DNA of 54,097 nucleotides from Chromera velia (Eukaryota), in the NCBI GenBank assembly GCA_018398765.1, contig JAHBMJ010000186.1:1-54097 (forward strand). The letters are read 5' to 3'. A model generated the notes under the pieces. That model did not search any database and was not told the DNA's origin. It was given only the letters and a program-made list of their open reading frames with translations. Both the position numbers and the translations under genes were made by a program. Positions 39,427-42,400 of this stretch are shown here, piece after piece. Numbering within the stretch: the stretch's first letter is position 1; the number at the start of each line of letters is the position of its first letter.

Positions 39427-42400
39427 TTACCCGAGAGAATACTGGCTATCTACTTCCTCTTTCTCTTGTTCTTCTTCCTCTTCCTCTTCCCCGCCGTCTT
39501 TCTCCTCCCCGTCCTCCTCCTCGTCCTCGTTCCCCTCGTCCTCTTCTTCGTCTTCATCCTCCTCGGCCGTGTCCCCTCCCTGCTGCCTCGGCTGCGGTTG
39601 GCTGACGGCGACCGCGACTCTCTCAAGGGCCCCGGCGGAAGGCCGAGAGTGCCGCCCCTGCTGAAAGTGCTGAACGGTAGCGAAGGGCGCGGGGTAGAGC
39701 GGAGCTCCAACCCCTGCAGGCACAAAGGCAAGCACATGGTTGAAAAATGAGCAGCCGTACCCACCCCATCCACGCTGTGTCACGGTTGACAGTCTGCAGT
39801 TAAGAAAGGCATTCTCTTTGTAAAGCGCAGACAGATGGCGGGCGCTGCAACTAGTGCCAAAAGAGACCTAACGAAAAATCACGCTTTAGCCACTGTACAT
39901 TGAACAGCTGTGTGGACGGGACCGCATGCTGACCTTGTAGCATCTGCATGTGTGGCGGCGGAGGGAAATTGAGGATGTGGCCCAGGGACGGCTGTCCGGA
40001 ACCCCCCGCGTGCTTCGATCGCGAGAGGGAATGACCCGGTGCACCACCCGTGGGACTTCCTCTCGAGGCTGCCAGAAGGTTGCCGTTGCCTCGCTCTCTC
40101 TGTGCGTCTCCGTCTCCTGGAAATATTTGGGCACTCTGCTGCTGCTGCTGCTGCTGTCTGAAAAGGTGAGAGGAGAGATCCCCCGCGGTGGGAGGAGTGC
40201 CACCTTTGAATCCTTTGGAAGAATGGTGACCTATATGGACAGGCACAGGGGCCGCAGAGGAAGAGGAAGAGGCGAAAGGAATCGGAGCGGGACCTGTAGG
40301 ATGGGGCATACGCATTTGAACAACCGGCCCTGCTGCAGTGAGGGAGGGCAGACGGCGGAAAGGGTTGGCACTCACAGACGCTTCCCCCCCCCTCATTCTC
40401 CGTCTGGAGATAAGTCCCTTAGGATCAAATTCTGCAGGAACTCTTCCACCTGATTGCTGCGCTGCCATTCTTTCCCATCCACCCTCTTTGTCCTCTTCGT
40501 CCTCTTCCCCTTCTTCTTCCCCTTCTTCCTCACCCTGCCTTTCTGTCCCTGTGTCGTCCACCTTGCTCTCCCCATCTTGCGCATCCTCACCTCCTTCTCC
40601 TTCTCGTTCCTCCTTTTCTTGTCCTGACTCTGTTGGTTCTACTCGTTTTCGCTTTTTCCCCTTTCCGGGACCGTCTCCTTTCAGGCCAAATCCGAGCAGC
40701 TTCGTGTGGTGGGGTGGGGGGGTGATTTCCCTTCCGTTCTCGTCTAGCACCACCCTGTGGCCGGTCGACTTATGGGCAGGCAACACGATCTTCTCCTCGG
40801 TCAGTCTCCTCAGAAGCGCCTGCGCTCGCATTGCGCCGATTTTGAACTCCCTCTGTAGTTGCCTGCAAATCCCCTCGAAGGAAAGAAAGACGAAGGAAGG
40901 TACTGATCAGATTAGCGATCTGTGACACGGAAGGGGGTTGTGGTGACATTGTCGCAAGCAGGCAAGACGAAAAAATGACACCTGCACGACATTGTGAGTG
41001 CACAGAAAGGACAGGAAAGTGCATGGAGAAGTAAAGAAAGGAAGGGCTGCTATGTTTTTCTTCTACCGCGTCTCTTTAAATTCTTGACTGTCTGTCTGGT
41101 CGCTTGAGTGCGGGCCCAGATGCCACTTTCTTTCGAAGCAGATCTTGCGACCACATGTTGTTTCAGAACACCAACGAGCAAATGAGAAACGTTACTGAGA
41201 GAGAAGCTGACTGACTGACTGACTGACTGACTGACAGCGTGGAGGCTTTCCCCCTCTCTCTGCATAACTTAATTGCAGTCTTTAAGTTCTGGTCAACCCA
41301 AAGTTTCGTGCTCTCATCAGCAGACAGCTTCCTTGTGTGTGCAGGCAATTGCGTGTTGTAGAAAGCTTCATCGCTCTGCACAGAAGCATCGTCTCGGTCT
41401 CTGTCTCTCCCTCCTTCAGCCTCTTGCTTGACCCTCTGCGGGTCTCGCTCAGCACCTTTCACGGGCCAGCCCCCCGGTTTCCGGACAATAGATGACTTTG
41501 CTTTGGGTTTCGCCCTTGCCTTCGACCCGGGCTTTTGTGGGGAGGACCCTGGCTTCCTTGTCTTTTTCAACAACCCCAAAAGCTCCTCTCGCTCTAACTC
41601 TGCCATGACAGACTGAGCGCCACTGCCCTCCCCACTCCGTCGCTTCAACCCCTGCTCTCCACTCTCCTCCACCCGCTCTGAGGGTTCAACAGACAGTGGG
41701 CCTGAGGGAGACGGCATGGAAGTGGAAATGCGCACAGGCGGAGGAAGTGCGTTGGGGGCAGCGGCTGAGGTGTCTGGGGGGTCGGGCTCGGATGGCAGTA
41801 CTGCAGGTGCTGTGACCAGAGACACACTCCCCGGCATTCCCTTGTTTTTGACAGCCTCCACCGGCAGCCCCTCTTCAAGAATTTCTTCGAGGAAGCCGAA
41901 GAGAGCTGAGGCACGGAGAAACCGAAGAGAGACAGAGGGAATGTCAAGAGAGCTCTCTGCGAATTCATCGGTGAGATTTTGCCTGTCTCCTCCCCCCCAT
42001 GCTCCCCTCGTCTGAAGAATCTCCCTCTGGTCCTTCCCTCGTCGCAATCCTTCCAACTCCAGATTTGCAATTTCAGTCTCTGATGGCATATCCGCAAACA
42101 CCGCCTCGACACACCCCTCTGTCCACTCGTCCCCCTCTCCCGCTGCCTCTCTGTCTATGAGAACTGCAGAGAGCTGCTCCAACAGGCGACGAAGTAGGAC
42201 AAGCGGAAACCTGTAGATAAACACACTGCAGAAAGACAGACGAAGAAGCAGTAAGAGTTTGTCCTTCTTTATCTTTCAACAGGATTTCCGCAGGTTTCGT
42301 GTCGTGAACGTTTGCACGTAAGCGCCTCTGCATCGCATCGCTTCGCTTCGCTTCTTTCTCCTTGTTGAGCAATTTCACCTCCACCCTGGACCGCTCGGCT

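What the first reader, a model, noticed from the sequence alone, without database searches (positions are those of the whole stretch)
40745..41297. FtsK-gamma-like winged-helix domain, hidden by an intron, fused to a JmjN/JmjC chromatin protein
Seen: splicing the phase-2 intron 41235-40863 (GTCAGT..TTGCAG) gives VDQNLKTAIKLCRERGKASTL|QLQREFKIGAMRAQALLRRLTEEKIVLPAHKSTGHRVVL. The domain is split across two ORFs and invisible in the ORF track. Established: the FtsK/SpoIIIE gamma domain (consensus roughly D.l...A...v....kAS.s.lQR.frIGynRAarl...le..GiV.......reVL) is the bacterial KOPS-reading winged helix, and this peptide follows that pattern nearly column for column. Inference: a KDM5/JARID-like scaffold with no recognisable ARID domain between JmjN and JmjC may have acquired a bacterial or phage DNA-binding module for sequence-specific chromatin targeting. 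GYNRA is changed to GAMRA in the recognition helix, which would imply altered specificity. I do not know of this architecture being described.
Basis: partly seen in the sequence, partly recalled or inferred. Interest (0 to 1): 0.88.

Follow-up and report, generated by a model that had tools for sequence, protein, structure and literature searches.

The report
Bacterial DNA-reader inside algal chromatin protein
A gene of the alga Chromera velia encodes, split across an intron, a small winged-helix domain of the kind bacterial chromosome-segregation motors use to read DNA, inside a predicted protein whose histone-demethylase domain has lost its iron-binding residues, so it likely works as a non-enzymatic chromatin tether.

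Summary
The 373-nt GT-AG intron 41235-40863 joins two exons into an FtsK-gamma winged helix: Pfam 35.4 bits against a cut-off of 30.6, best of 62 in-frame joins, fold closest to the KOPS-bound gamma domain (Z 10.2, 1.2 A). The public model Cvel_15643 / A0A0G4F823 (1848 aa, 15 exons) has the same intron and already carries both Pfam families, so the fusion is in databases; I found no paper on it. All three iron ligands of the JmjC are replaced, and its best solved match is the inactive JARID2. All three residues whose mutation makes E. coli FtsK KOPS-blind are also replaced, and the domain is single, whereas KOPS reading uses three. Best reading: a pseudo-demethylase scaffold that likely grips DNA through a bacterial-type domain, KOPS-blind, sequence specificity unshown. 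Weak points: no RNA evidence was obtained, no orthologue was found, and the eukaryotic Hop1 winged helix is a detectable distant relative, so transfer from bacteria is likely, not shown.

The parts
39427..49725 (-). Whole coding span, 15 exons, 1848 aa; identical to public model Cvel_15643 / UniRef A0A0G4F823
48871..48984 (-). JmjN-like motif, aa 248-285, end of exon 1
   Evidence: Pfam JmjN E 0.056, below cut-off; aligns weakly to the JmjN of JMJ14 and KDM4D
47856..48557 (-). Exons 2-3 (with intron 2): JmjN-to-JmjC linker, no ARID or PHD found
   Evidence: aa 346-406 align to the linker of JMJ14, 5.4 bits; no Pfam hit for either exon
45366..47216 (-). JmjC core, aa 579-694, over exons 4-7; iron ligands replaced by T591 (47180-47178), Q593 (47174-47172), V682 (45404-45402)
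   Evidence: Pfam JmjC 52 bits; alignments to JMJ14, KDM4D and JARID2; coordinates from the exon table
41832..45294 (-). Exons 8-12 and start of exon 13: partly hydrophobic segments of unknown family between JmjC and the winged helix
   Evidence: no Pfam or PDB sequence hit for the pieces tried; hydrophobicity profile
41236..41297 (-). 5' part of the FtsK-gamma domain (helix 1, strand 1), end of exon 13
   Evidence: profile positions 4-22; model
40863..41235 (-). Intron 13, 373 nt, phase 2, donor at the first unit of a 7-copy GTCA repeat
40745..40862 (-). 3' part of the FtsK-gamma domain (helix 2, recognition helix 3, wing), start of exon 14
   Evidence: Pfam E 3e-6 on its own; profile positions 24-63
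40643..40657 (-). Basic KKRKR stretch at aa 1513-1517, likely a nuclear localisation signal (inferred)
39417..39422 (-). AATAAA just after the stop codon; the only AATAAA or ATTAAA on this strand between 38500 and 50500

Best explanation
The gene model encodes a 1848-residue JmjN/JmjC protein that has lost all three iron ligands and carries one intron-split FtsK-gamma winged helix, and it likely acts as a non-catalytic nuclear scaffold that the winged helix would tether to double-stranded DNA without reading the bacterial KOPS motif. Shown: domain identity, exon structure, loss of the metal triad, replacement of the three KOPS-blind positions, net charge +7 over 60 residues, a basic stretch just downstream. 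Inferred: one transcript; the Jmj barrel binds histone tails or partner proteins as JARID2-type pseudo-enzymes do; helix 3 and the wing contact DNA in the canonical way, weakly and with little sequence preference, so the domain would fill the role that ARID has in JARID/KDM5 proteins; the domain came from a bacterium or phage and gained its intron afterwards.
For: Pfam FtsK_gamma above cut-off and JmjC in one protein. Model pLDDT 83; top of 48,161 PDB representatives is FtsK gamma, Z 9.7; Z 10.2, 1.2 A over 61 residues to 2ve9. A model folded without alignment keeps the three helices and still ranks FtsK gamma 1st, 2nd and 4th, at weak E-values of 0.76 and above. 54 of the 59 other proteins found among 1.84 billion representatives carry FtsK_gamma; best single-domain identity 48%, median 34%. 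Family signature residues are kept (A, S, Q, R, G, R, A and the wing R, each in 86-106 of 111 domains). The domain is mobile in prokaryote-type proteins: fused to DnaJ, Mrr, AlbA_2, T5orf172, TIR and to a phage small terminase (PMC8190038 passages). JmjC: JMJ14 H/E/H align to T591/Q593/V682; best solved match is JARID2, 41.6 bits against 34.4 for JMJ14 and 27.1 for KDM5A, sharing FPGSFVS at the lost histidine. E. coli R1300/E1303/E1306 (KOPS-blind triple, PMC2680272 passages) align to A1459/R1462/T1465. KOPS reading uses three gamma domains (PMC3384302 passages); there is one here. Single gene: the six introns between JmjC and the domain are 134-467 nt, all GT-AG, and no AATAAA lies between them.
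Against: No RNA evidence; a search for shorter, for example transcript-derived, proteins found none among 140 candidates. The cluster has one member and no orthologue was found for the domain or the JmjC, so conservation of the fusion is untested. In an analogous class, transposon-chromatin fusion gene models, only 31% passed RNA validation (bioRxiv 2021.11.30.470311 passages). Hop1 winged helices are the next structural match (Z 7.7; Foldseek rank 11) and are hit by a gamma profile (E 4.5e-4). The main model was folded on an alignment of gamma domains, which biases it. Losing DNA-reading residues fits a non-DNA role equally well. Taxonomy of the relatives is mostly unnamed: 20 of 59 were looked up and most carry no name.
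Confidence: 0.55

Rival explanations
1. The winged helix is a native eukaryotic domain related to the chromatin-binding winged helix of meiotic HORMAD (Hop1) proteins, moved into a Jmj protein by domain shuffling; no transfer from bacteria is needed.
For: Hop1 CBR structures are the best non-FtsK matches (9mug rank 11; 9myp Z 7.7). A gamma profile detects 9mug at E 4.5e-4. Hop1 winged helices occur in SAR, including Plasmodium, and bind DNA (passages of PMC12678776; bioRxiv 2023.03.04.531117; PMC12365614).
Against: The domain itself finds five FtsK chains first and no Hop1 chain among 8 PDB sequences at E up to 10. No HORMA family is listed for any of the 59 relatives (lists cut to five families for 8 proteins). 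Rmsd is 1.2 A to gamma against 4.2 A to 9myp.
Confidence: 0.15
2. The domain is a protein-contact module rather than a DNA reader, as gamma also contacts XerD and as the winged helices of cullins and ESCRT-II bind proteins.
For: The conserved Tyr (94 of 111) and the KOPS-reading positions are replaced. Protein-binding winged helices score Z 6.9-7.6. A gamma-XerD complex is among the top matches (5dcf).
Against: Net charge +7 (13 K/R, 6 D/E). The arginines of helix 2, helix 3 and the wing are kept, and an acidic helix-3 position became Arg, which favours nucleic acid binding.
Confidence: 0.13
3. The gene predictor fused two neighbouring genes; the winged-helix exons belong to a separate gene downstream of a JmjC gene.
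For: No reads, no orthologue, about 730 residues without a known family between the domains.
Against: All linking introns are canonical and of the gene's usual size, shorter than the median intergenic distance of 989 bp; the only AATAAA follows the final stop.
Confidence: 0.12
4. The domain is a sequence-specific reader with a new motif, targeting a chromatin complex to defined sites.
For: Gamma specificity co-evolves with different motifs across bacteria (PMC3384302 title and passages); the recognition helix is changed while the core is intact.
Against: Single copy, whereas three gamma domains read one KOPS and trimers were built to obtain better binding; the related Hop1 domains bind DNA with Kd 16 uM or about 250 nM and no motif is reported in the passages read. 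No motif could be tested here.
Confidence: 0.15

Closest known systems
FtsK/SpoIIIE gamma domain (Pfam PF09397; PDB 2VE9, 2J5P)
   Same: Full-length family match above cut-off, same three-helix winged fold, signature residues kept.
   Different: No translocase motor, single copy, intron inside, nuclear eukaryotic gene; Y1295, N1296, R1300, E1303, E1306 of E. coli replaced by A, M, A, R, T.
JARID2/Jumonji (inactive JmjN/JmjC scaffold, PRC2 cofactor)
   Same: JmjN plus JmjC with no metal triad; best solved match; identical FPGSFVS at the lost histidine.
   Different: No ARID or C5HC2 zinc finger found. E(z) was found among alveolates only in ciliates and colponemids (PMC9018016 passages; Chromera not named in the text), so a PRC2 role is unlikely. 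Orthology against convergence is untested.
KDM5/JARID1 and plant JMJ14-type H3K4 demethylases
   Same: JmjN, linker and JmjC align in order to JMJ14.
   Different: Iron ligands lost; about 150-residue insertion before the JmjC core; no ARID, PHD, C5HC2 or PLU-1 family hit.
Meiotic HORMAD (Hop1) chromatin-binding region, PHD-wHTH
   Same: A gamma-like winged helix beside a histone-facing module, binding DNA and nucleosomes in two parts.
   Different: No HORMA or PHD here; sequence closer to bacterial gamma; the two modules are about 730 aa apart, not packed together.
Phage Sam46 small terminase with N-terminal FtsK gamma
   Same: Gamma domain detached from its motor and fused to another DNA-handling protein; top viral fold match, 34% identity.
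   Different: Prokaryotic, DNA-binding site reported as conserved there, changed here.

Membership tests
FtsK gamma domain (PF09397) | Score above the curated cut-off over most of the model | tested here: met
   35.4 bits vs 30.6, positions 4-60 of 63
FtsK gamma domain (PF09397) | Three-helix winged-helix fold matching solved gamma domains best | tested here: met
   Z 10.2, 1.2 A over 61; top of 48,161; weaker but same ranking without alignment. Predicted models.
KOPS-reading FtsK/SpoIIIE translocase | Alpha/beta ATPase motor in the same protein | tested here: not met
   only JmjC and FtsK_gamma at E up to 10; no NCBIfam hit
KOPS-reading FtsK/SpoIIIE translocase | Recognition-helix residues R1300, E1303, E1306 (E. 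coli) | tested here: not met
   A1459, R1462, T1465 (alignment; role from PMC2680272)
KOPS-reading FtsK/SpoIIIE translocase | Sequence-specific DNA binding by three gamma domains | not testable with these tools
   one copy in the protein and in the window; binding needs an experiment
Active JmjC demethylase (KDM4/KDM5) | JmjC domain with JmjN | tested here: met
   JmjC 52 bits; JmjN only at E 0.056 with collinear alignment
Active JmjC demethylase (KDM4/KDM5) | HxD/E...H iron triad (role from established knowledge) | tested here: not met
   T591, Q593, V682 against JMJ14 H, E, H
KDM5/JARID1 | ARID, PHD, C5HC2 zinc finger, PLU-1 | tested here: not met
   no such Pfam family at E up to 10 on the protein or on ten pieces; very divergent forms could be missed
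JARID2 | Inactive JmjC with JARID2-type substitutions | tested here: met
   best PDB match, shared FPGSFVS
JARID2 | ARID domain between JmjN and JmjC | tested here: not met
JARID2 | Orthology by phylogeny; PRC2 binding | not tested
   no JmjC relatives could be fetched (one search returned only the protein itself)
Hop1/HORMAD CBR winged helix | Closer to Hop1 winged helices than to gamma | tested here: inconclusive
   gamma is closer than the two solved animal Hop1 domains; alveolate Hop1 not available

The most novel reading that the evidence does not exclude
A bacterial chromosome-polarity reader was transferred into the nucleus of an apicomplexan relative, gained an intron, was re-tuned to a new DNA motif, and now serves as the sequence-specific targeting arm of a JARID2-like pseudo-demethylase in a lineage reported to lack the PRC2 enzyme: a PRC2-independent Jumonji recruitment system guided by a bacterial domain.
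Probability: 0.15. Interest if true: 0.78.

Novelty: new variant of a known kind. Interest (0 to 1): 0.5.

Why it matters
No paper pairing FtsK gamma with JmjC or with eukaryotic chromatin was found in the library, and no eukaryotic relative of this domain appeared among 1.84 billion representatives at E up to 0.001. If the fusion is transcribed, it is a clean case of a bacterial-type DNA-reading module domesticated inside a chromatin protein of the closest free-living relatives of apicomplexans, and a second route to a JARID2-like dead demethylase. It also exposes a sequence link between FtsK gamma and the Hop1 chromatin-binding winged helix that the three Hop1 papers searched do not mention (0 occurrences of FtsK). 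The value is limited by its being one gene in one species, already auto-annotated with both domains, with no expression or binding data.

Tried and rejected
Bacterial contamination: rejected, because a canonical intron splits the domain inside a 15-exon gene; GC3 of the domain is 0.72 against 0.59 +/- 0.08 along the gene (range 0.40-0.78), not an outlier. Alternative donors in the GTCA repeat and alternative acceptors: all 61 other in-frame joins score lower. Chance match: rejected. Orthologues: three protein searches returned only the protein itself or nothing; metagenome scans gave no relative of the domain among 473 stretches and one JmjC-exon hit, L001, which lies off-frame in a bacterial permease-like ORF and was rejected (that scan covered 33 of 64 parts); the viral scan with the alignment could not run. 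Phage records: 18 weak matches, best E 6e-3; PHROG 13700 FtsK/SpoIIIE-like at E 1e-5; ESM Atlas neighbours are small phage-type gamma proteins at 0.83-0.84, a lead only. None identifies a donor. Five of the 59 representative hits lack the domain and are repetitive chance matches. JmjN, exon 3 and the exon-13 helical segment found nothing meaningful in PDB sequences. No tree was built: no Hop1 or alveolate JmjC sequences were in hand, and 60 columns would not place a donor. No genome was held, so paralogues and PRC2 genes in this genome are untested. RNA support is open. The wide structural search of the alignment-free model did not run. Supplements of the genome paper show no FtsK, PF09397, JmjC or PF02373 in 12 of 16 files and no Cvel_15643, Ftsk_gamma, Jumonji or demethylase in 16 of 16. 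The supplementary tables of the chromatin-evolution preprint, which list domain architectures and whose survey includes Chromera, were not seen and may already list this one. Earlier scan notes held nothing relevant.

Full report
Observation. The 3' exon alone hits Pfam FtsK_gamma positions 25-60 at E 3e-6; the 5' piece alone has no Pfam hit. A search with the exon-14 translation found 1 protein among 5308 candidates: P0001, 1848 aa, labelled by its sources as Chromera velia A0A0G4F823 / Cvel_15643, with PF02373 and PF09397 precomputed. On this protein FtsK_gamma spans aa 1425-1481 at 35.4 bits (cut-off 30.6) and JmjC aa 579-694 at 52 bits; these are the only two families at E up to 10. The junction is the best of 62 in-frame, stop-free joins out of 238 pairs (65.1 vs 55.5 bits) and the domain far exceeds shuffles (65.8 vs best 10.1 among 836 reported of 1000), with the caveat that this profile came from proteins selected by likeness to the query. 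Read support could not be obtained.

What the domain is. Among 1.84 billion representatives, 60 proteins reach E 0.001, the first being the protein itself. 54 of the other 59 carry FtsK_gamma, mostly as tandem copies, some with the FtsK motor and others fused to DnaJ, Mrr, AlbA_2, T5orf172, TIR or a response regulator; 5 are repetitive chance hits; none lists JmjC or HORMA, though lists were cut to five families for 8 proteins. Only 2 of 59 matched with a single stretch, so single-copy eukaryotic relatives near the threshold could be missed. Of 20 looked up, three are named FtsK/SpoIIIE-like, two chance hits are ant proteins, one is named hypothetical, and the rest are unnamed; their prokaryotic origin is therefore inferred from sequence. 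Best domain identity is 48%, median 34%, over 111 domains. The model (pLDDT 83) matches FtsK gamma in Foldseek ranks 1-10, none at E below 0.001, tops 48,161 representatives at Z 9.7, and fits the KOPS-bound domain at Z 10.2, 1.2 A over 61 residues. Folded with no alignment it keeps the three helices but not the wing (pLDDT 75), and gamma chains rank 1, 2 and 4 at weak E-values.

A eukaryotic look-alike. The next structural matches are Hop1 chromatin-binding regions (9mug rank 11; 9myp Z 7.7, 4.2 A), and a gamma profile that includes the query detects 9mug at E 4.5e-4 and ribosomal eS25 at 1.2e-5. Hop1 winged helices are widespread, SAR included, and bind DNA (passages of PMC12365614, bioRxiv 2023.03.04.531117 and PMC12678776; none mentions FtsK). 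The query itself finds five FtsK chains first and no Hop1 among 8 PDB sequences at E up to 10. A bacterial or phage origin is the better reading, but alveolate Hop1 sequences were not tested and no donor was found.

Recognition helix. In the alignment to E. coli gamma, Y1295, N1296, R1300, E1303 and E1306 (numbering from the aligned ranges) face A, M, A, R and T. R1300A/E1303A/E1306A is the KOPS-blind allele (PMC2680272 passages). In 111 domains Tyr is present in 94 (Ala 2), Asp/Glu in 93 (Arg 1), Glu in 92 (Thr 3); the Asn position varies freely and the R1300 position is Arg in only 50. Core and several arginines are kept, net charge is +7, and KKRKR follows at aa 1513. Three gamma domains read one KOPS (PMC3384302 passages); there is one here. 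So KOPS reading is unlikely, DNA binding is plausible, and a new motif is unshown.

The host protein. JmjN is weak (E 0.056), but JmjN, linker and JmjC align in order to JMJ14, leaving no ARID hit. The iron-binding H, E and H of JMJ14 (roles from established knowledge) face T591, Q593 and V682, so the protein should not be a demethylase. Of 58 PDB sequences at E up to 0.01 the best two are JARID2 (41.6 bits; JMJ14 34.4; KDM5A 27.1), which shares FPGSFVS at the lost histidine. Atlas neighbours are eukaryotic JmjC clusters at 0.92-0.94. Orthology to JARID2 was not tested, since no relative could be fetched (only itself among 674 candidates). E(z) was found among alveolates only in ciliates and colponemids (PMC9018016 passages); PMC10638273 passages gave nothing on JARID2's range. 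It works like JARID2 in being a dead Jumonji scaffold, but fails the ARID test and is not filed as one.

One gene or two. The six introns between JmjC and the domain are 134-467 nt and canonical, below the genome's median intergenic distance of 989 bp (PMC4501334 passages), and the only AATAAA on this strand in 38500-50500 follows the last stop (its use in this organism is assumed). Against: the cluster has one member, no shorter protein scored among 140 candidates, metagenome scans were empty or gave a chance hit, and only 31% of transposon-chromatin fusion models passed RNA checks in a broad survey (preprint passages; a different class of fusion).

Mechanism. Most likely (0.55) a nuclear pseudo-demethylase scaffold: the Jmj barrel would bind histone tails or partners, and the gamma domain would hold it on DNA with low specificity, a two-part grip like Hop1's PHD-wHTH or JARID's ARID-JmjC. 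Rivals, not all exclusive: native Hop1-type domain (0.15), a new sequence-specific reader (0.15), protein-contact module (0.13), fused gene model (0.12).

Novelty. Library searches found 0 papers with FtsK gamma plus JmjC, 0 with the gene id, and one unrelated listing each for two eukaryote-focused queries (listings only). Three papers hold Chromera velia plus JmjC; passages of two concern other genes and the third was seen as a listing. Gamma shuffling into other proteins has a phage precedent (PMC8190038 passages). The library lacks most subscription papers, and preprint supplements that list architectures were not seen. The architecture is auto-annotated in a public entry. Verdict: real, unusual, single-species, a new variant of a known kind; interest 0.5.

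Noticed in passing
PDB 9mug / 9myp vs alignment A1: A profile of FtsK gamma domains detects the Schistosoma Hop1 chromatin-binding winged helix (E 4.5e-4) and ribosomal eS25 (E 1.2e-5); the three Hop1 papers searched do not mention FtsK.
   Followed up: partly
P0002-P0060: Many metagenomic proteins consist of two or three tandem FtsK gamma domains with no motor, or fuse gamma to DnaJ, Mrr, AlbA_2, T5orf172, TIR or zinc ribbons; natural analogues of the engineered gamma trimers.
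   Followed up: no
window 30363-32210 (-): Glycosyltransferase 61 domain (E 2.1e-10); the window's single N is at 30464.
   Followed up: no
window 34264-34599 and 38921-39245: Two copies of a dispersed repeat of about 330 nt (229 nt at 93% plus 102 nt at 87%), one just downstream of the gene's stop.
   Followed up: no
window 51128-52141 (+): Open frame of 337 codons upstream of the gene, on the other strand, with no Pfam hit at E up to 1.
   Followed up: no
window 12023-13903 (+): RCC1 repeats in two frames.
   Followed up: no
window 21273-21926 (+): GPS autoproteolysis motif (E 6.6e-11) at the start of a long multi-exon membrane-protein-like region running to about 26330.
   Followed up: no
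window 7729-8232 (+): ELO fatty-acid elongase fragment (E 7.3e-11).
   Followed up: no
window 3241-5445 (+): 734-codon low-complexity frame ending in a stretch that resembles DNA polymerase A motif C (recalled; no Pfam hit).
   Followed up: no
window 41207-41235 (-): The donor of intron 13 is the first unit of a 7-copy GTCA microsatellite, giving several alternative GT donors four bases apart.
   Followed up: partly
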